Shown piece by piece: positions 11,565 through 18,753 of a DNA stretch of 32,000 bases. Source of the DNA: Candidatus Thorarchaeota archaeon (GTDB taxonomy: Archaea; Asgardarchaeota; Thorarchaeia; Thorarchaeales; Thorarchaeaceae); contig SHMX01000005.1 in assembly GCA_008080745.1 (NCBI GenBank), forward strand, positions 192,847-224,846, read 5' to 3'. The translations under genes and the position numbers were made by a program. The notes beneath the pieces were generated by a model. It was not told the DNA's origin and did no database searches. It saw nothing but the letters and a program-made list of their open reading frames with translations. Numbering within the stretch: the stretch's first letter is position 1; every line of letters starts with the position of its first letter.

Positions 11565-11602
11565 GTGCGGAATGGTGTCGGATTTCCGATACCATTCTAC
11601 AC
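11565..11602. terminator. Long hairpin at the convergent aminotransferase/bshC junction
   Basis: GAATGGTGTCGG (11570-81) pairs with CCGATACCATTC (11586-97) with one G-U and a 4-nt loop; the stem is extendable. Overlaps the bshC stop codon. Confidence 0.55.
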
Positions 11603-13312
11603 CATGAAGTTGATGAAGAGTGTAGCACCGTTTTTAAGACCCTGTGAGTGTGCACGCTGATATGGTCCGAACAAATCGGTGAATCCTGAGTTCAATGACC
11701 ATTCTATCCATGACCATGCTGACTCTTGACTAAGCTTATCTGGAGCATATTGGCCGAACGTCCAACTTAGATACTTCTCAATATCTAGTTTCAACATCTG
11801 TAACTCTTCATATTTTCCTCCAGAAGTTTCTTCTATCTCTTTGATTATTTCTTCATAGGCATCATTGAGTTGAGAATGAACTGAATGAAGATACTGGGAG
11901 AATTCCTGAACTGCATCATTCATCTTCTGATCATTTTCTTTTCGTCTGAATTTGTTGATTCTTCCACTCAGTTTAAACAAGTCACGATCATGAAGCACTG
12001 GAATGTCTTTTTTCTTGAGCTCCTTTCCTAACTCCTCATTCCAAGGTGTATTAAAATAGGTTCTAGGATATCTAATAAAAGCTGGAAAAGGCTCATCCAT
12101 CTCTTTTGCAGCTGGGATGACCTGTGCATAATATGCCGTTTCTCCAGGACCACCTACATGTGCAATTGTGGGTATTATTGTATCAATAGCAAGTTGCCTT
12201 GAATCAACTCGAAGGGAGAGCTGCTCTGCATGTTCTTCCAAATCTGGTTCCCCTTTTTCCACCTCTATCTGTATTTTTTCACCACAAGATGGACATTTCC
12301 CCTCTAATATTGCATTAGAACCTTGATCACGATAAACAAGCTCAGTCCTACTATTGTTACAATCCCTATTTGGACACTCATAGAGAAAAGGCACATAGTC
12401 CTTACCTCTGGACCCTGCCCCTGTAGCATACCCCTCTGCCCCTATCATTTGTGTTGCATTTTCATGGGCCCGTAGAAATGCACTACGTTTGTCTTGACTA
12501 AGTAGGTATTCCAAACCACTAAGAAGGGCTCTTCGGATTCTTTTATCTCCCGCAGGGACCAAAGGTATCCCAAGATTGCCTTCTATATTGAATAGGGAAC
12601 CAAGAATTCTGGTTGCCCATTCTCCTAATGTTTTTGAATTGACAAATGCCTTGCGAGTAACCGTTAATGCATGTTCAAGACGCTCATCAAGAAGTATTCT
12701 TGCTGTTCCATCAAGAACTTTGAATAGAGGTCTGTAACTTGATTTAATCGATTCTTCTGCCTCTCTGTACCACTCATAATCTGGGAGCGGAAGATGATTT
12801 ACAGGGGAGTATTCATAACCTTCTGGAACTGGGATGCTGATGAGATTCCCATTTTGTCCGATATTGGGTGTTCTGATATTGGTTAATTCAGATTGCACAA
12901 CGTCATAGTCTGCAATACAGAAATATGGTGTAACGGTTATTCCATTCTGGGTACAGTATTCCGATATTGAAACTGCTGATGCAGCTTTGTTTAGAATATA
13001 CCCGGGTCCGCCCATGACTATAGTCTGGTGTGCAGATTCAACTGCACCATCATGCAGATTCATTATTGAACTATGTACTTTGGGTGTCAAGCAGTTCATT
13101 TCTCTGTTTATCTCAACTAACACCCTCTGAATCTCTTTCACTCGTTCCTGTGAAAACCATGGTGACTTTTTATATTTTGCAAGTATATCTGGTACTCTGG
13201 TATGCAACCCCCCCATTTCTAGCACTGGCAGATTATAGAGATACTTCGCTAAGTCTTCGTTCTTTTGTTCCCAGATATAATCTTGATATATGTGATAGAC
13301 ACTTGGTTCCAT
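11597..13312 (-). CDS. bshC: Bacillithiol biosynthesis protein BshC (putative cysteine-adding enzyme)
   Basis: SAHQ..VMGGPGY..NKAASA (cf. GQQ..LF.GPLY..YK), IADYD (cf. A.EDHD), C-terminal HVGGPGETAYYAQV..A (cf. Y.GGPGE.AY.AQL), FPAFIRYPR. Lies directly downstream of bshA. Confidence 0.85.
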   Translation of the reverse strand: MEPSVYHIYQDYIWEQKNEDLAKYLYNLPVLEMGGLHTRVPDILAKYKKSPWFSQERVKEIQRVLVEINREMNCLTPKVHSSIMNLHDGAVESAHQTIVMGGPGYILNKAASAVSISEYCTQNGITVTPYFCIADYDVVQSELTNIRTPNIGQNGNLISIPVPEGYEYSPVNHLPLPDYEWYREAEESIKSSYRPLFKVLDGTARILLDERLEHALTVTRKAFVNSKTLGEWATRILGSLFNIEGNLGIPLVPAGDKRIRRALLSGLEYLLSQDKRSAFLRAHENATQMIGAEGYATGAGSRGKDYVPFLYECPNRDCNNSRTELVYRDQGSNAILEGKCPSCGEKIQIEVEKGEPDLEEHAEQLSLRVDSRQLAIDTIIPTIAHVGGPGETAYYAQVIPAAKEMDEPFPAFIRYPRTYFNTPWNEELGKELKKKDIPVLHDRDLFKLSGRINKFRRKENDQKMNDAVQEFSQYLHSVHSQLNDAYEEIIKEIEETSGGKYEELQMLKLDIEKYLSWTFGQYAPDKLSQESAWSWIEWSLNSGFTDLFGPYQRAHSQGLKNGATLFINFMV

Positions 13313-13323
13313 GAATTAACATC

Positions 13324-14487
13324 CTATTTTTCTACTGCTTCTTCAAAGACCTTCTCATACAGTGGCACAATTGCTTGTGCTGAAAATGATTCCTCTACTC
13401 GCCTTCTACCTGCCTTTGCATATTTTTTCCTACTCTTTTCATCATTGAGGAGATCGATAATGGCCTCAGCAAATTCTTCCTGTTCAAATCCCTTTGTTAC
13501 CTCTCCATCAATACCGGGACGGACCAATTCTGGGATTCCTCCTGCAGGGGTTGTGATGATTGGTAATTCACAAGCCATTGCCTCAAGAAGGACCAACGGC
13601 ATTCCCTCCATGGTTGAGTTCAGTAGGAATATGTCTGCTGCAGACATTATTTCTTGGATATTACTCTTAACACCTAGAAGGTGTACATTATTGCATAAAT
13701 CCAATTCTTCGATTTTTCGTTCTACCTCTATACGTGTGGGTCCATCTCCAGCAATTATCATTCGGGTTTCTGGTTGATGGTCTACTACTATACGCATGAT
13801 TTCTATGAGATCAACTACCCGTTTCACCTTTCGAAAATTGGATGCGTGGAAAAGAACTTTTTCTTCGGGGAGAATGATTTCCGGGTCCTCCACATTTCTT
13901 AGTGAAACACAGCCGCTTTCTACCACTAATCTGTATCCTTTTACAGGCTGAAACTCTTCTACATCTATGAAGTTTGGAATGACATGAATTTCACGACTGA
14001 TTTCAAGCTCGTTGATGGCTTTATTTTTTAGAAACTCGGAAACCGCGGTAACACCATTCGCTTCTTGAACTGTATGTTGAACTACAGGTTTGTAAGCGGG
14101 ATCCAAGCCAAGAGTGTGAACGTCCGACCCATGAAGAGTCACTACATATGGAATACCTGAGATTTCTCTTGCCATATATGCGGACATAGCATGAGGGATA
14201 GCATAGTGTGCGTGGATGATATCTAATTTGGCCTCTTTTACAACCTTCAAAATTTTTGAAGCAAGTGCCATAGAATAGGGCGGACCCACCGCTTTGAAAA
14301 GAGGATAATCGAATCTATCAACAAGGTCCACATAGATTCCCCTTGGTTGTTCCCACATTAGAGAGAAGGGTCTCTCATAGGTGATGAAATGGATAATATG
14401 TTCTCGTTTTGCTAGGGCATGACTCAATCGGGTAGCTAAGTAACCCGAACCCCCAACAGAGGGATACATGTTTACGCCTATTCTCAC
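13324..14487 (-). CDS. bshA: N-acetyl-alpha-D-glucosaminyl L-malate synthase (GT4)
   Basis: MRIGVNMYPSVGGSG.LAT.L, HFITYERPF, IHAHYAIPHA, VTLHGSD, HASNFRKVKRV, EGMPLVLLEAMAC. GTG start at 14487 preceded by AGGTGA SD. Confidence 0.92.
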   Translation of the reverse strand: MRIGVNMYPSVGGSGYLATRLSHALAKREHIIHFITYERPFSLMWEQPRGIYVDLVDRFDYPLFKAVGPPYSMALASKILKVVKEAKLDIIHAHYAIPHAMSAYMAREISGIPYVVTLHGSDVHTLGLDPAYKPVVQHTVQEANGVTAVSEFLKNKAINELEISREIHVIPNFIDVEEFQPVKGYRLVVESGCVSLRNVEDPEIILPEEKVLFHASNFRKVKRVVDLIEIMRIVVDHQPETRMIIAGDGPTRIEVERKIEELDLCNNVHLLGVKSNIQEIMSAADIFLLNSTMEGMPLVLLEAMACELPIITTPAGGIPELVRPGIDGEVTKGFEQEEFAEAIIDLLNDEKSRKKYAKAGRRRVEESFSAQAIVPLYEKVFEEAVEK

Positions 14488-14595
14488 GCAATTCACCTTT
14501 TTGTTTGACCCTGGTTCTACTCGCCTTTAAGAGCAGTGGTAGTAGCATGATTTCTAGTCAGAAACTTGATATTACTGAATGGGGTATCCTAGCAT

Positions 14596-15261
14596 ATGAC
14601 TGAGGAATCTGCTTGTGTTCTCGTAATCATAGCTCATCCAGATGATGAATCTCTTGGAGCGGGAGGGACAATACGTCAGCATGTCATCAACGGTATTCCT
14701 GTCGACGTGCATTGTATGACTGGAAACGAGGAACGGAACGAAGAGCTGAAGAAAGCATGTTCGGTTCTTGGAGTTAGAAATCTCTATCTGAGTGAACGAG
14801 AAGATTTTGATATTGACATGAGTATGGTTCATGAGGTTGTGGCAACCATTCTAAAGTCGCGCCCAACCATAATCATCACGCATTCTCAGGAGGATTATAA
14901 CCGAAACCATCAGATTTGTGCTCAGATAGTAGAGCAGGCTGTGGAGTGGGCCTCTCATATTACCATATTTGACAATGCTCATCGTGTAGAACGCATCTAT
15001 CACATGGAGATTAATTCTCTGCATCCTCATCCTCATGTGCATGTGAATATAACTAACTCCTATTCAGAAGCTTTGCATGCACTAAGACAACATAAATCTC
15101 AGACTTCAAAGGCAAATGATTTCTACGAAAAATTGTATGATGCACGAACTAGATTGCGCGGCGTACAGGCTGATGTAAAACGGGCTGAGGCATTTACAAT
15201 ATCATTGCCAAAGCACGCTGGTCCATTCTATCCTGAGAACAGTGTTGAAACACTGGTATAG
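14596..15261 (+). CDS. bshB: PIG-L/LmbE-family deacetylase, putative GlcNAc-malate deacetylase
   Basis: IAHPDDESLGAGGTI motif, H.SQ, R.RG...AEAF. Divergent from bshA. The second motif is atypical (DYNRNH instead of DxHPDH). Confidence 0.75.
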   Translation: MTEESACVLVIIAHPDDESLGAGGTIRQHVINGIPVDVHCMTGNEERNEELKKACSVLGVRNLYLSEREDFDIDMSMVHEVVATILKSRPTIIITHSQEDYNRNHQICAQIVEQAVEWASHITIFDNAHRVERIYHMEINSLHPHPHVHVNITNSYSEALHALRQHKSQTSKANDFYEKLYDARTRLRGVQADVKRAEAFTISLPKHAGPFYPENSVETLV

Positions 15262-15266
15262 GTCCG

Positions 15267-15665
15267 TTAACTGCCCTCTGCCTTCTTTCTGCGAGCTGCG
15301 AGAAGGGCTTTGAGCTCACCCATCATTCCGCCTCCACCGCCTCCGCCAGCTGGCTTGGGTGGGGGTGCTCTAGCTATTGGAGCCTTTGCCATTGCTGGAG
15401 CTGCATCAGCTGCATCGGATGGACCTGATGAAGATGGTGTAAATGACCCTGATGCTAGTTTACTCTGCATAGAACCTATCTGTGACTCTAAACCGCCGAC
15501 CTCACTTCTCAGAGTTGCTACTTCGGATTGTAGACCTTCAATAAACTCGATTAGTTTCTTGGTAATGGTACTAACAACTTCTCCAAGTTCGCGTAATTTC
15601 TCTTCTGTTGGATCTTTTAGAGCCCATTCGAACTCTTCCATAATGAAATCTTCATCGTCACCCAT
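15267..15665 (-). CDS. Coiled-coil / Pro-rich / Ena-VASP FAB-like (WH2-related) protein; candidate actin regulator
   Basis: Heptads LIEFIEGLQSEVATLRSEVGGLESQIGSMQSKL; flexible Ser/Ala/Pro linker ending APPPKP; C-terminal GGGGGGGMMGELKALLAARRKKAEGS. The CDS is well supported; the function is inferred. Confidence 0.7.
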   Translation of the reverse strand: MGDDEDFIMEEFEWALKDPTEEKLRELGEVVSTITKKLIEFIEGLQSEVATLRSEVGGLESQIGSMQSKLASGSFTPSSSGPSDAADAAPAMAKAPIARAPPPKPAGGGGGGGMMGELKALLAARRKKAEGS

Positions 15666-15786
15666 ATGTATTCAGACCCCTAAGTAGGCATATCTGATTT
15701 TATTTAATTGTGCTATAAACCTTGTTTGCTTATGGTTGTCTTGCATGATAGACTTTGTCATTTCGCAATATGAAGTCACTGCTTTT

Positions 15787-17163
15787 TCAAAGCTTCTTCA
15801 TGGTTTCCTCTACCACTGATTTCGCCAGTACAAGAATTTCATGGGTTCTTGCCTTGTTAGCTGCCTCACAGGTGATACGAATGATTGGTTCTGTCCCTGA
15901 GGGTCGTACGAGAAGCCATCCATCCTCAAGAACTATTCCTAGTCCATCTACAGTTAGAACCTCAACAACATCGCCCATTGATTTAGGTAAATATTCAGAG
16001 AGTTGTTCCATCGCTTCCTCTTTCTGATCATTAGGACAAGGCACTTTTGTTTTTTCAAGGGGATAGACTGGAATCTCTGCAATAAGCTCACCGAATGCTT
16101 TTCCTGTTTCAGCCATACTTTCAAGAATCTTGCAAATTGCTAAGAATGGCTCAGGTGCAAGATGGAACTCGGGAAAGATAAAGACTCCACAGGCCTCGCC
16201 TCCCATAATCGCCTTTTCCTCCTTGATTTTCACTGCGACTTGGATGTCACCGACAGGAGTTCGGATTGTCTTTCCACCCGCTCTTTGAACAGTTTCATCA
16301 AGGACCTTTGAACTGTCCACAGTGGTGACAATTGTCTTATTCGATTCCTCTCTAAGATAGCTCTTAGCAATCAGAGCAATGGTTCGGTCTCCCCGAACAA
16401 CCTCTCCTGTTTTTGTCACAAAAACAACTCGGTCCGAATCGCCGTCGTGCGCAATTCCCAAATCAGCCCCTGTCTTCTGGATGAGTTGAATTAGGTCTGT
16501 TAGTGATTCTTCTTCAGGTTCAGATTTTCTTCCAGGAAAATGACCATCAAGTTGACTATTTATGCTGACTACTTTACATCCCAATTCTTGCATCAGGTAT
16601 GGAGTTAGCACACAGGCAGCACCATTACCAGGATCAACTATCACCTTGTATCTCTTAGACCTGATCAGGTCTGCTCTGCACTGGTTGAGTAAGCGTGAGA
16701 TATGCTGACTTACTAGGTTTGGAATCATGGATTCTTTTCCGAGTTGGTCCCAGTCTGCCACCAAGTATTCTTTGGAATGGTATATCCGTTCCAATTCGGA
16801 CTCGATATCCTGTGTGAGACCCATGCTATCAGCACCCCAGAACTTGACTCCTGTGTATTCCGGTGGATTATGAGAAGCTGTCACCATCAGGCCCGCATCA
16901 TATCCAAGCTCTCTGGTCATCAATGCCAAAGTTGGTGTAGGGATTATTCCTGTGCGTACCACATTCACCCCGGTTGACAACAATCCCGCTGAAAGAGCAT
17001 CTGCAATCATCAGTCCGGTAATTCTAGCATCTCTTGCAATCAAGACGGTACCTCTTTTCAGATAGGTGCCAAGCGATTTACCCAAACGCATTGCCATCTC
17101 TACATCGAACTCTGTTCCGTATACCTTTCGGACTCCGGTCGTTCCAAAGAGCTTCTTAGTCAT
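15787..17163 (-). CDS. glmM: Phosphohexomutase (phosphoglucosamine mutase / PMM-PGM family)
   Basis: LFGTTGVR, phospho-Ser loop TASHNP, metal loop DGDSDR, GGEACG, RPSGTEP. Substrate specificity (GlmM vs PMM) is not resolvable here. Confidence 0.85.
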   Translation of the reverse strand: MTKKLFGTTGVRKVYGTEFDVEMAMRLGKSLGTYLKRGTVLIARDARITGLMIADALSAGLLSTGVNVVRTGIIPTPTLALMTRELGYDAGLMVTASHNPPEYTGVKFWGADSMGLTQDIESELERIYHSKEYLVADWDQLGKESMIPNLVSQHISRLLNQCRADLIRSKRYKVIVDPGNGAACVLTPYLMQELGCKVVSINSQLDGHFPGRKSEPEEESLTDLIQLIQKTGADLGIAHDGDSDRVVFVTKTGEVVRGDRTIALIAKSYLREESNKTIVTTVDSSKVLDETVQRAGGKTIRTPVGDIQVAVKIKEEKAIMGGEACGVFIFPEFHLAPEPFLAICKILESMAETGKAFGELIAEIPVYPLEKTKVPCPNDQKEEAMEQLSEYLPKSMGDVVEVLTVDGLGIVLEDGWLLVRPSGTEPIIRITCEAANKARTHEILVLAKSVVEETMKKL

Positions 17164-17267
17164 AGTGCCCACAATTTACTACTCAAAATTTCTCCATGAA
17201 AAATCTATCTACTGATAGGCAAAATATCTCTATATGTGGTTTTTCTTATTCTTTGCCCGGTGTTCTC

Positions 17268-18210: not shown

Positions 18211-18753
18211 GTGAGTAGTAGCTATGATTTCCTGTTCAAGGTAGTGGTGCTAGGGGAAGGCGCAGTGGGTAAGACTGCTATTGTTACACGCTTCTCTCAT
18301 GGTTTCTTCCGTACCGATTACAAGACTACTATTGGTTCTCAATTTGCAGTCAAGAATCTAGAGATTCCTAGTGGGAAAAATGATTCCCTTACAGTGAAAT
18401 TGCAAATATGGGATGTTGCAGGCCAGTCTCGTTTTCAAATCCTACGTCCCATGTATTACCGTGGGTCCAGTGGTGGTATCCTTGTCTATGATGTGAGCCG
18501 ACGGAGGACCTTCATTGTCCTTGAGGAATGGCTAGAAGAGTTAGAAAAGGCTCTTGGTAAGAAGATTCCTCTGGTACTTGTTGCCAACAAGACTGACTTA
18601 CCTGATCGTGTTGTTGATCCTGCAGAAGGTAAGGAATTTGCAGAACGTCACGATATGCCTTATGTCGAATCAAGCGCAAAGACGGGACAGGGGATAGTGG
18701 ATATCTTCGAGCAACTGGCTAAGACTCTTGTTGAAGAACGAACTACAGAATGA
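18211..18753 (+). CDS. Rab-like small GTPase (eukaryotic signature protein), no C-terminal prenylation Cys
   Basis: G1 GEGAVGKT, G2 KTTIG, G3 WDVAGQ, G4 NKTD, G5 SAK. RabF-like IGSQF, KLQIW, RFQILR, YYRGS, LVYDVS. Confidence 0.93.
   Translation: MSSSYDFLFKVVVLGEGAVGKTAIVTRFSHGFFRTDYKTTIGSQFAVKNLEIPSGKNDSLTVKLQIWDVAGQSRFQILRPMYYRGSSGGILVYDVSRRRTFIVLEEWLEELEKALGKKIPLVLVANKTDLPDRVVDPAEGKEFAERHDMPYVESSAKTGQGIVDIFEQLAKTLVEERTTE

What the first reader, a model, noticed from the sequence alone, without database searches (positions are those of the whole stretch)
15267..15665. Archaeal protein with an Ena/VASP-like F-actin-binding motif, Pro-rich linker and coiled coil: candidate Asgard actin polymerase or bundler
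Seen: the 132-aa protein ends in GGGGGGGMMGELKALLAARRKKAEGS (15267-15347), preceded by a flexible linker with APPPKP and an N-terminal heptad coiled coil. Established: the FAB block of the Ena/VASP EVH2 domain reads, from memory, [19 protein letters not shown] in human VASP. My hand alignment gives 12 of 18 identical positions, including the Gly run, M-x-E, A-x-LA and RRK. VASP combines oligomerising coiled coil, poly-Pro and actin-binding motifs to elongate and bundle filaments. Asgard archaea encode actin, profilin and gelsolins, but I do not know of a described VASP-type elongation factor there. Inference: this is a minimal, rearranged VASP-like module, with the oligomerisation coil N-terminal rather than C-terminal. 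Caveats: only three consecutive Pro (short for profilin), no clear GAB or EVH1, and the motif is short enough that convergence is possible.
Basis: partly seen in the sequence, partly recalled or inferred. Interest (0 to 1): 0.88.

Follow-up and report, generated by a model that had tools for sequence, protein, structure and literature searches.

The report
Asgard coiled-coil protein, VASP-like tail
This small gene belongs to an undescribed protein family confined to Asgard archaea (a coiled-coil stalk, a floppy and often proline-rich tether, and a near-invariant C-terminal helix that resembles actin-binding motifs of animal VASP), which makes it a testable candidate for a missing archaeal actin-assembly or bundling factor, although actin binding is not shown.

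Summary
ORF 15267-15665 (-) encodes the 132-aa protein as described. It matches no Pfam, NCBIfam or PDB family.

It belongs to a family found almost only in Asgard archaea. A tail-only profile hits 288 of 400 Asgard genomes. The family has two conserved blocks (an N-terminal helix and a C-terminal helix) around a variable heptad coiled coil and a disordered tether.

It is not an Ena/VASP member. EVH1, GAB and the VASP tetramerisation domain are absent. The Gly run is not conserved. The likeness to the published VASP FAB (20-23 bits) would arise by chance about 0.1-0.8 times per human-sized proteome, and it is strongest in the derived Thor clade. Canonical WH2 (LKKV) is absent.

The tail is a portable module. 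It also occurs on an Arf-like GTPase, on a Xer-like recombinase and in three tail-like copies on a Zn-ribbon protein.

Best guess, at about 40%, is an oligomeric actin-docking scaffold that arose by convergence. This scan flagged the same family earlier on other genomes.

The parts
15267..15665 (-). Complete CDS of the 132-aa protein (stop codon at 15267-15269)
   Evidence: Homologues: 175 by word-index search. Profile hits in 272 of 400 genomes with the Thor full-length profile and 288 of 400 with the tail profile.
15558..15644 (-). N-terminal conserved block (residues 8-36, IMEEFEWALKDPTEEKLRELGEVVSTITK). Residues 1-23 have net charge -8.
   Evidence: Mean frequency of the commonest residue is 0.86 in Thor and 0.54 across the phylum. 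F12 is at least 90% conserved across the phylum. Modelled helices are 3-17 and 21-71.
15453..15596 (-). Heptad coiled coil (residues 24-71), the presumed oligomerisation stalk
   Evidence: All a and d positions are hydrophobic, with one stutter. pLDDT is above 90. The sequence is variable but the heptads are kept. The oligomeric state was not determined.
15327..15452 (-). Disordered Ala/Ser/Pro/Gly tether (residues 72-113), including the semi-conserved APIARAPPPKP (15351-15383) and the Gly run (15327-15347)
   Evidence: pLDDT is about 50. P101 and P107 are at least 90% conserved. The Gly run is not conserved. Equivalent tethers in other lineages hold Pro runs of 4-7.
15279..15326 (-). C-terminal docking helix (residues 114-129, MMGELKALLAARRKKA), the VASP-FAB-like tail
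   Evidence: Modelled helix 113-130 with pLDDT about 84. It is the most conserved segment of the protein (0.87 in Thor, 0.67 across the phylum). It is the only copy in this genome (1e-9 against more than 0.4 for the next hit).
15714..15719 (-). TTTATA, a candidate archaeal TATA box 49-54 nt upstream of the ATG. A GGGG stretch lies 12-15 nt upstream of the ATG.
   Evidence: Read directly. Calling it a promoter is inference. The gene is separated by 121 nt from the upstream PGM/PMM gene.

Best explanation
The gene encodes a small cytoplasmic scaffold of an undescribed family seen almost only in Asgard archaea. Shown: an acidic conserved N-terminal helix, a coiled coil of about seven heptads, a disordered tether of about 40 residues, and a strongly conserved 16-19-residue basic C-terminal helix. 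That helix is a portable module, because it also occurs on other Asgard proteins. Inferred: the coiled coil oligomerises, so several tails are displayed on flexible arms. Each tail docks as a helix on actin, on the filament side or in the barbed-face cleft, as WH2 and VASP-FAB helices do. The oligomer then tethers or bundles filaments. In lineages whose tether holds PPPPP tracts it could also hand profilin-actin to filament ends, as the proline-rich/WH2 units of VASP and WASP proteins do. In this Thorarchaeota protein the poly-Pro has decayed to PPP, so bundling or tethering is more likely than profilin-driven elongation. The likeness to VASP would be convergence on a short helix, not descent.
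For: Conservation pattern: the two end blocks are conserved while the coil and tether drift. The tail is found in 288 of 400 Asgard genomes, 76 of 90 high-quality ones and about 20 of 33 families. In the matches shown it is almost always in open frames of 130-210 aa. Weak hits in outlying families were checked and have the same architecture. Distribution: every relative that carries a taxon name is labelled Asgard. A pattern scan of 185,579 species genomes confirmed 134 relatives; the 80 listed have Asgard or unnamed-archaeon titles apart from one probably misbinned contig. Actin is present in this genome (438 bits) and in 37 of 41 sampled Asgard genomes. Poly-Pro runs of 4-7 sit directly upstream of the tail in most non-Thor members, for example three PPPPPGR repeats in the closed 6.0-Mb genome that is probably L. 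ossiferum. This is the order used by VASP and WASP proline-rich/WH2 units (established knowledge; Bieling et al. 2018 is cited). The published human VASP FAB scores 20-23 bits on the family matrix, gapless, and 0-2 of 20,000 shuffles reach that score. The tail has Arg inside its hydrophobic face and a low hydrophobic moment (0.04-0.39), which suits a protein-docking helix better than a lipid-inserting one. Modularity resembles that of WH2: the whole module is fused to an Arf/Rag-type GTPase, and three tail-like copies occur in one Zn-ribbon protein. Literature searched names only profilins and gelsolins as Asgard actin regulators and says no formin or Ena/VASP polymerase is known there.
Against: There is no direct evidence of actin binding. 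No WH2, WH1/EVH1, VASP_tetra or FH2 match appears in Pfam. The tail profile finds no PDB chain at E up to 10, although many WH2 chains are solved. A helix-plus-LKKV pattern fits 0 of 45 tails. The chance expectation of the FAB score is 0.1-0.8 per human-sized proteome, and about 11 when only non-Thor members build the matrix, so the likeness peaks in a derived clade. VASP's GAB does not match. Some actin-bearing families lack the tail: f8 has 0 of 31 with the tail but actin in 2 of 2, and f13 has 0 of 12. In family f10 the tail sits on a Xer-like tyrosine-recombinase protein, which is hard to link to actin. Loki, Odin and Heimdall LC2 profilins were reported not to bind VASP poly-Pro (PMC8410842). 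No actin-related neighbour is conserved. The Lokiactin co-IP highlights name no such protein, though the full list could not be checked.
Confidence: 0.4

Rival explanations
1. The tail is a tethered docking peptide for a conserved Asgard partner other than actin, such as a division, ESCRT, trafficking or GTPase-linked hub. The coiled-coil protein is then a multivalent adaptor. The architecture would parallel other 'domain, flexible linker, short conserved C-terminal peptide' systems such as the FtsZ C-terminal peptide or the ribosomal stalk proteins (established knowledge).
For: The tail is portable and appears on unrelated proteins: a Xer-like recombinase in 10 of 12 f10 genomes (tail confirmed in at least two), an Arf/Rag-type GTPase, an LRR protein (partial tail) and a larger helical protein. 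Strict conservation of E117, L118 and K119 suggests one specific protein surface. A recombinase targeted to a division-site hub would make biological sense, which is inference. There is no statistical proof of WH2 or FAB homology.
Against: No candidate partner emerged. Neighbourhoods are not conserved across lineages. The MIM1 pattern fits 0 of 45 tails. The poly-Pro tract placed directly before the helix is left unexplained.
Confidence: 0.28
2. The tail is a basic-hydrophobic membrane or phosphoinositide-binding helix that anchors the coiled-coil protein and the other tail-bearing proteins to the cytoplasmic face of the membrane. The Pro-rich tether acts as a spacer.
For: The helix is at the extreme C-terminus after a flexible linker, has net charge +1 to +4 and has Leu, Phe and Met on one face. 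It resembles MinD or FtsA-type anchors in placement (established knowledge). Anchoring a GTPase or a recombinase at the membrane is plausible.
Against: The hydrophobic moment is low (0.04-0.39), mean hydrophobicity is negative and Arg lies within the hydrophobic face. Near-invariance of an acidic residue (E117) and of exact residues across a phylum is unusual for lipid-binding helices, which tolerate substitution (inference).
Confidence: 0.17
3. The acidic N-terminal block (net charge -8) and the basic tail (net +3) bind each other. This would give autoinhibition or head-to-tail self-assembly of the family's own polymer or condensate.
For: The two ends have complementary charges, and they are the two co-conserved blocks. 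Each has a Thor-specific and a Loki-specific version.
Against: The tail also occurs on the Xer-like protein without the N-terminal block. No covariation analysis was done. This rival is compatible with the other explanations rather than exclusive of them.
Confidence: 0.08
4. The protein is a true, rearranged homologue (by descent) of the eukaryotic Ena/VASP EVH2 region.
For: Gapless likeness of the tail to the human FAB, with a Pro-rich region and an oligomerising coil in the same protein.
Against: EVH1, GAB and the VASP tetramerisation domain are absent, and the domain order is reversed. The likeness is concentrated in the derived Thor clade, and the inferred ancestral tail (R-x-A-L-x-x-E-L-K-x-L-F-x-K-M-R type) is less VASP-like. 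From general knowledge, not tested here, Ena/VASP is not pan-eukaryotic.
Confidence: 0.03

Closest known systems
Ena/VASP EVH2 region (F-actin-binding FAB motif plus oligomerisation coil; human VASP 259-278)
   Same: A short helix with the same spacing of hydrophobic and basic residues ([13 protein letters not shown] against M-M-G-E-L-K-A-L-L-A-A-R-R). A Pro-rich region lies upstream. An oligomerising coil sits in the same polypeptide.
   Different: No EVH1, no GAB and no VASP tetramerisation domain. The coil is N-terminal and heptad-based. The protein is only 132 aa. The likeness is statistically marginal and best in a derived clade, and in this protein the poly-Pro is only PPP.
WH2 domains with adjacent proline-rich regions (WASP/WAVE/WIP type), and the WH2-like LKDV motif of Asgard two-domain gelsolins
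   Same: The non-Thor tails begin R-G-A-I-M-G-E-L, which resembles my recollection of the WH2 helix start (R-G-A-L-L-D-Q-I). Poly-Pro lies directly upstream. The motif is modular and occurs on varied proteins, sometimes in several copies.
   Different: No LKKT/V or LKDV element (0 of 45). The tail is not recognised by Pfam WH2, and its profile finds no PDB chain. The basic cluster follows the helix directly.
Thorarchaeota 1DGelX 'domain X' (Akil et al. 2020, PMC7444086)
   Same: An Asgard-specific, predicted coiled-coil extension with no known homology. Its authors hypothesised that it holds an actin side-binding motif.
   Different: Our protein has no gelsolin domain. This genome has only a two-domain gelsolin, and the tail occurs once, in our gene. 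Whether domain X carries a similar tail was not tested.
Tethered C-terminal docking peptides (FtsZ C-terminal peptide, ribosomal stalk P1/aP1)
   Same: The architecture: an oligomerising domain, a long flexible linker and a short conserved terminal peptide (established knowledge).
   Different: No sequence relation. The partner is unknown.

Membership tests
Ena/VASP | N-terminal EVH1 (WH1) domain | tested here: not met
   No WH1 match in Pfam for P0001 or for 10 distant members at E up to 10. The N-terminus is a helix.
Ena/VASP | Central proline-rich region that binds profilin | tested here: inconclusive
   This protein has only PPP. Thor members have maximum runs of 1-4. Most other lineages have runs of 4-7, up to three per protein. 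Profilin binding was not testable.
Ena/VASP | G-actin-binding site (GAB, WH2-like with KLRK) | tested here: not met
   The published GAB peptide scores negative on the family matrix. There is no second helix in the tether.
Ena/VASP | F-actin-binding site (FAB) | tested here: inconclusive
   20-23 bits gapless, against 25-41 bits for family members. Chance expectation is 0.1-0.8 per human-sized proteome, and about 11 with non-Thor members only.
Ena/VASP | C-terminal tetramerisation coil (VASP_tetra) | tested here: not met
   No Pfam match. The coil is N-terminal with a canonical heptad pattern.
WH2 domain | Amphipathic helix of about three turns with hydrophobic residues at i, i+1 and i+4 | tested here: met
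   I/L-M-x-x-L spacing is conserved across the phylum. The segment is modelled as a helix.
WH2 domain | LKKT/V-type motif a few residues after the helix | tested here: not met
   The pattern fits 0 of 45 tails.
WH2 domain | Recognition by family models or by solved WH2 sequences | tested here: not met
   No PF02205 hit. The tail profile against PDB sequences gives 0 hits at E up to 10.
WH2 domain / FAB | Binds actin | not testable with these tools
MIT-interacting motif 1 (ESCRT-III tails) | (D/E)xxLxxRLxxL(K/R) | tested here: not met
   0 of 45 tails, even with a relaxed pattern.
Membrane-targeting amphipathic helix (MinD/FtsA type) | High hydrophobic moment with an uninterrupted apolar face | tested here: not met
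   Hydrophobic moment 0.04-0.39, negative mean hydrophobicity and Arg within the apolar face. This is a calculation, not a lipid assay.
Formin | FH2 domain after the FH1-like poly-Pro | tested here: not met
   The only FH2 signal is one noise-level coiled-coil match (E 0.11, 12 bits against a cut-off of 34.8).

The most novel reading that the evidence does not exclude
This family is the missing filament-assembly factor of Asgard archaea: an oligomeric protein with poly-Pro and a WH2/FAB-like helix that binds Asgard actin, recruits profilin-actin in most lineages and is wired to Arf-type GTPases. Its tail would be an archaeal counterpart, convergent or ancestral, of the eukaryotic WH2/FAB actin-binding helix.
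Probability: 0.2. Interest if true: 0.92.

Novelty: new variant of a known kind. Interest (0 to 1): 0.74.

Why it matters
Asgard archaea have actin, profilins and gelsolins. Cultured species crawl and remodel actin-filled protrusions. Yet the papers searched state that no formin or Ena/VASP-type polymerase is known there.

A widespread Asgard-restricted family that combines an oligomerising coil, poly-Pro and a conserved WH2/FAB-like helix is a concrete candidate for that gap. In one lineage it is fused to an Arf-type GTPase. It can be tested now with available Lokiactin reagents and cultures.

If the tail binds something else, it is still a new portable docking motif shared by several Asgard signalling proteins, and its partner would be a hub worth knowing.

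Tried and rejected
1. Complex prediction with cognate actin (A3) and the tail (A4) was not folded on policy grounds, because the chain looks eukaryote-like.
2. The tail profile against PDB sequences gave 0 hits. The whole protein against PDB gave only coiled-coil noise.
3. Pfam and NCBIfam gave nothing above noise.
4. The ESM Atlas search on the tail gave no usable feature hit, and the structural rows are trivial single helices.
5. A search for longer or fused forms with the full profile found none at E up to 1. This was weak evidence, and fused forms were later found with the tail-only profile.
6. Gene neighbourhood: synteny with PGM/PMM and the bacillithiol-type genes is kept within Thorarchaeota, but Loki-type loci are unrelated, and no actin, profilin or gelsolin neighbour was seen.
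7. Lokiactin co-IP look-up: G138 is probably L. ossiferum B35, because tag order matches coordinates. The homologue at 2.629 Mb should be near tag 2239 +/- 15. However, the exact sequence is not in the protein collection, and the stored Supplementary Table 2 appears to stop within the proteome sheet, before any co-IP data. This is unresolved.
8. The Arf-like genes inspected near the position expected for the co-IP-enriched L. ossiferum Arf show no tail.
9. The MIM1 and canonical WH2 patterns were rejected.
10. The search for related loci with the phylum-wide alignment failed because the alignment is too divergent. It was repeated with a Loki-type alignment.

Full report
OBSERVATION. These are an N-terminal helical region, the short Pro-rich stretch APPPKP (residues 100-105), a run of seven Gly (107-113) and the C-terminal MMGELKALLAARRKKAEGS. 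Residues 24-71 have L, I, V, M or F at every a and d heptad position, with one stutter. AlphaFold2, run with a 45-sequence alignment, gives helices 3-17 and 21-71 (pLDDT above 90), a disordered stretch 72-112 and a helix 113-130 with pLDDT about 84. The opposite-strand ORF 15310..15687, with its poly-Pro run, is just the mirror image of the Gly run.

WHAT IT IS. Pfam, NCBIfam and the PDB sequences return only coiled-coil noise. The protein nevertheless has many relatives. A word-index search finds 175, nearly all 125-150 aa, all annotated 'hypothetical' and almost all labelled Thorarchaeota. An exhaustive search of 1.8 billion cluster representatives finds only about a dozen true clusters, so the close family is narrow. 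Within Thorarchaeota two blocks are almost invariant: F-E-W-A-L-x-D-P...G...I-T at the N-terminus and M-G-E-L-K-x-L-L-A-A-R-R-x-K at the C-terminus. The coil and the tether vary.

A profile search of 400 genomes of the phylum then found weaker full-length matches in many other families. I fetched more than 30 of these. They share the same plan: an N-terminal A-E-E-F...K-A-P-L-E-E-K...G-D-I-V-E-K-I-M helix, a coiled coil, a disordered tether and the tail P-V-S-L-R-G-A-I-M-G-E-L-K-x-L-F-x-K-R-K. A second model, built on a Loki-type member, has the same architecture. Across the phylum L118 is invariant, and F12, E117, K119 and R125 are at least 90% conserved.

A tail-only profile is highly specific: in this genome it scores 1e-9 for the gene against more than 0.4 for the next hit. 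It finds the tail in 288 of 400 Asgard genomes, in 76 of 90 high-quality genomes and in about 20 of 33 families. In the matches listed it is usually single-copy and lies in frames of 130-210 aa. Whole families lack it (f8 0/31, f13 0/12, f26 0/7), although actin is present there. Every relative that carries a taxon name is labelled Asgard. A pattern scan of 185,579 species genomes confirmed 134 relatives. The 80 listed have Asgard or unnamed-archaeon titles, apart from one contig in a MAG labelled Nanopelagicaceae, which is probably a binning error.

THE POLY-PRO POINT. That holds for the Thor clade, where the maximum run is 1-4. Elsewhere the tether is 25-49% Pro, with one to three runs of 4-7 Pro directly upstream of the tail. 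One example is three PPPPPGR repeats in the closed 6.0-Mb genome G138. G138 is probably L. ossiferum B35, because the order of its actin and gelsolin genes matches the published locus tags. The ancestral plan is therefore coil, then poly-Pro, then a basic helix, and the Thor protein in this window is a version that has lost most of its Pro.

HOW VASP-LIKE IS THE TAIL? I built a weighted position-specific matrix from the phylum-wide alignment and scored the published peptides.
- The FAB aligns without gaps ([13 protein letters not shown] against MMGELKALLAARR) at 20.4 bits over 13 columns, or 23.2 bits over 15 columns. Family members score 25-41 bits.
- Only 0-2 of 20,000 shuffles of the FAB reach those scores.
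- The exact per-window probability (1e-8 to 8e-8) means about 0.1-0.8 equally good chance hits in a human-sized proteome.
- With only non-Thor members in the matrix, the score falls to 16 bits and the expectation rises to about 11.
- VASP's GAB does not match.

The outlying families carry tails such as I-N-V-R-Q-A-L-N-T-E-L-K-Q-L-F-T-K-M-R. The L-L-A-A-R-R-K-K form that looks most like VASP is therefore a derived Thor feature. No WH1/EVH1, WH2, VASP_tetra or real FH2 match exists. The tail profile finds no PDB chain at E up to 10. A helix-plus-LKKV pattern fits 0 of 45 tails. I conclude that the protein is not a member of Ena/VASP or of canonical WH2, and that the resemblance is a short helix that could be convergent.

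THE TAIL IS A PORTABLE MODULE. Genomes with several tail matches showed it on other proteins.
- In f23 an Arf/Rag-type GTPase (PF00025, 83 bits) is fused to the whole family module. Residues 323-459 match the small protein of G138 at E 6e-9.
- A 317-aa helical protein has G-P-P-P-S-M repeats followed by the tail.
- An LRR protein carries a partial tail.
- A Zn-ribbon protein has three tail-like copies.
- In f10 a protein of about 600 aa has a Xer-like tyrosine-recombinase domain (PF00589, 49.5 bits; XerD and XerA in the PDB at E about 3e-4). A long Gly/Pro/Ser linker follows, then S-Q-M-G-E-L-K-A-L-L-A-R-R-R-K, then an acidic extension. This protein is present in 10 of 12 f10 genomes.
- Tandem paralogues of the small protein occur in f17 and f18.

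This distribution resembles that of WH2 motifs in eukaryotes and fits actin docking. It fits any hub-binding or membrane-binding peptide equally well, and the recombinase fusion is awkward for the actin reading.

RIVALS TESTED ON THE SEQUENCE. The MIM1 pattern fits 0 of 45 tails. The helix has a low hydrophobic moment (0.04-0.39), negative mean hydrophobicity and Arg within its apolar face, which argues against a lipid-inserting anchor. Residues 1-23 have net charge -8 and the tail +3, so head-to-tail contacts are possible.

CONTEXT. Within Thorarchaeota the gene sits between a PGM/PMM mutase and a bacillithiol-type cluster of PIG-L, GT4 and BshC. Loki-type copies have unrelated neighbours. 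The gene has its own TTTATA element 49-54 nt upstream of the ATG. This genome has one two-domain gelsolin and a single copy of the tail. Pfam's profilin model found nothing, but it also found nothing in the controls.

WHAT COULD NOT BE DONE. The Lokiactin co-IP list could not be read for the homologue. The Arf-like genes inspected near the position expected for the co-IP-enriched L. ossiferum Arf show no tail.

LITERATURE. Full-text searches for Asgard with VASP, WH2, poly-proline, nucleator or Lokiactin found no description of this family. The 2025/2026 L. ossiferum motility study names only gelsolins and profilins as regulators and states that Ena/VASP and formin polymerases are not known in these organisms. 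Akil et al. 2020 left the coiled-coil 'domain X' of Thor 1DGelX unexplained and guessed at an actin side-binding motif. Earlier notes of this scan reached a similar reading on other genomes. I treated them as leads and repeated the tests here.

VERDICT. The shown facts are a new, widespread family seen almost only in Asgard archaea, with a conserved and portable C-terminal helix that usually sits behind poly-Pro. My best mechanistic guess is a multivalent actin-docking scaffold: a bundler or tether in Thorarchaeota, and possibly a profilin-assisted elongation factor elsewhere. It would have arisen by convergence with VASP and WH2. I put this at about 0.4, ahead of a non-actin hub peptide (0.28), a membrane anchor (0.17), self-association (0.08) and true VASP homology (0.03).

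Noticed in passing
window 11597-17172: A bacillithiol-type biosynthesis set lies next to a PGM/PMM mutase (15787-17172, -): BshC-like (11597-13312, -; PF10079, 64.7 bits), a GT4 glycosyltransferase (13324-14496, -) and a PIG-L deacetylase (14596-15261, +). The same order is kept in another Thorarchaeota genome (L075). This is unusual for an archaeon, and the scan has flagged it separately.
   Followed up: partly
L164:736-2523 (+), family f10; also L158: A protein of about 600 aa has a Xer-like tyrosine-recombinase domain (PF00589, 49.5 bits) that reads ATGSQ where I recall Xer recombinases having ATGLR, so it may be inactive. A long Gly/Pro/Ser linker follows, then the Thor-type tail SQMGELKALLARRRK, then an acidic extension ending EIDLPDFSI. 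It is present in 10 of 12 genomes of that family.
   Followed up: partly
L180:184-1566 (+), family f23: An Arf/Rag-type GTPase (PF00025, 83 bits) is fused to the entire coiled-coil, poly-Pro and tail module. This Rosetta-stone fusion links the family to small-GTPase signalling.
   Followed up: partly
L178:1324-2217 (-), family f19: A 298-aa Zn-ribbon protein has three tail-like copies (MMNELKGLFSRYK, LRTALMMELQRLFAARR and LIEELRLFFARR). This is reminiscent of tandem WH2 nucleators, but the protein has no Pro-rich tracts.
   Followed up: no
L023 (85-447 and 599-973, -); L174 (762-1133 and 1138-1572, +); L182: Tandem paralogues of the small protein occur in families f17 and f18. Some have Gln/Thr/Lys-rich rather than Pro-rich tethers.
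   Followed up: no
window 18211-18753 (+): A Ras/Rab-like small GTPase (PF00071, 167 bits) lies 2.5 kb from the gene and is separated from it by two unrelated genes. The same arrangement is seen in another Thor genome (L075).
   Followed up: partly
L128 (DATKTW010000134.1): A contig of a MAG labelled 'Candidatus Nanopelagicaceae bacterium' carries a Loki-type family member (58% identity). This is most likely a misbinned Asgard contig.
   Followed up: no
window 15310-15687 (+): A 125-aa antisense ORF starts MSSPIIPPPPPPP. It is the mirror image of the Gly run and not a gene, because conservation follows the minus-strand frame.
   Followed up: yes
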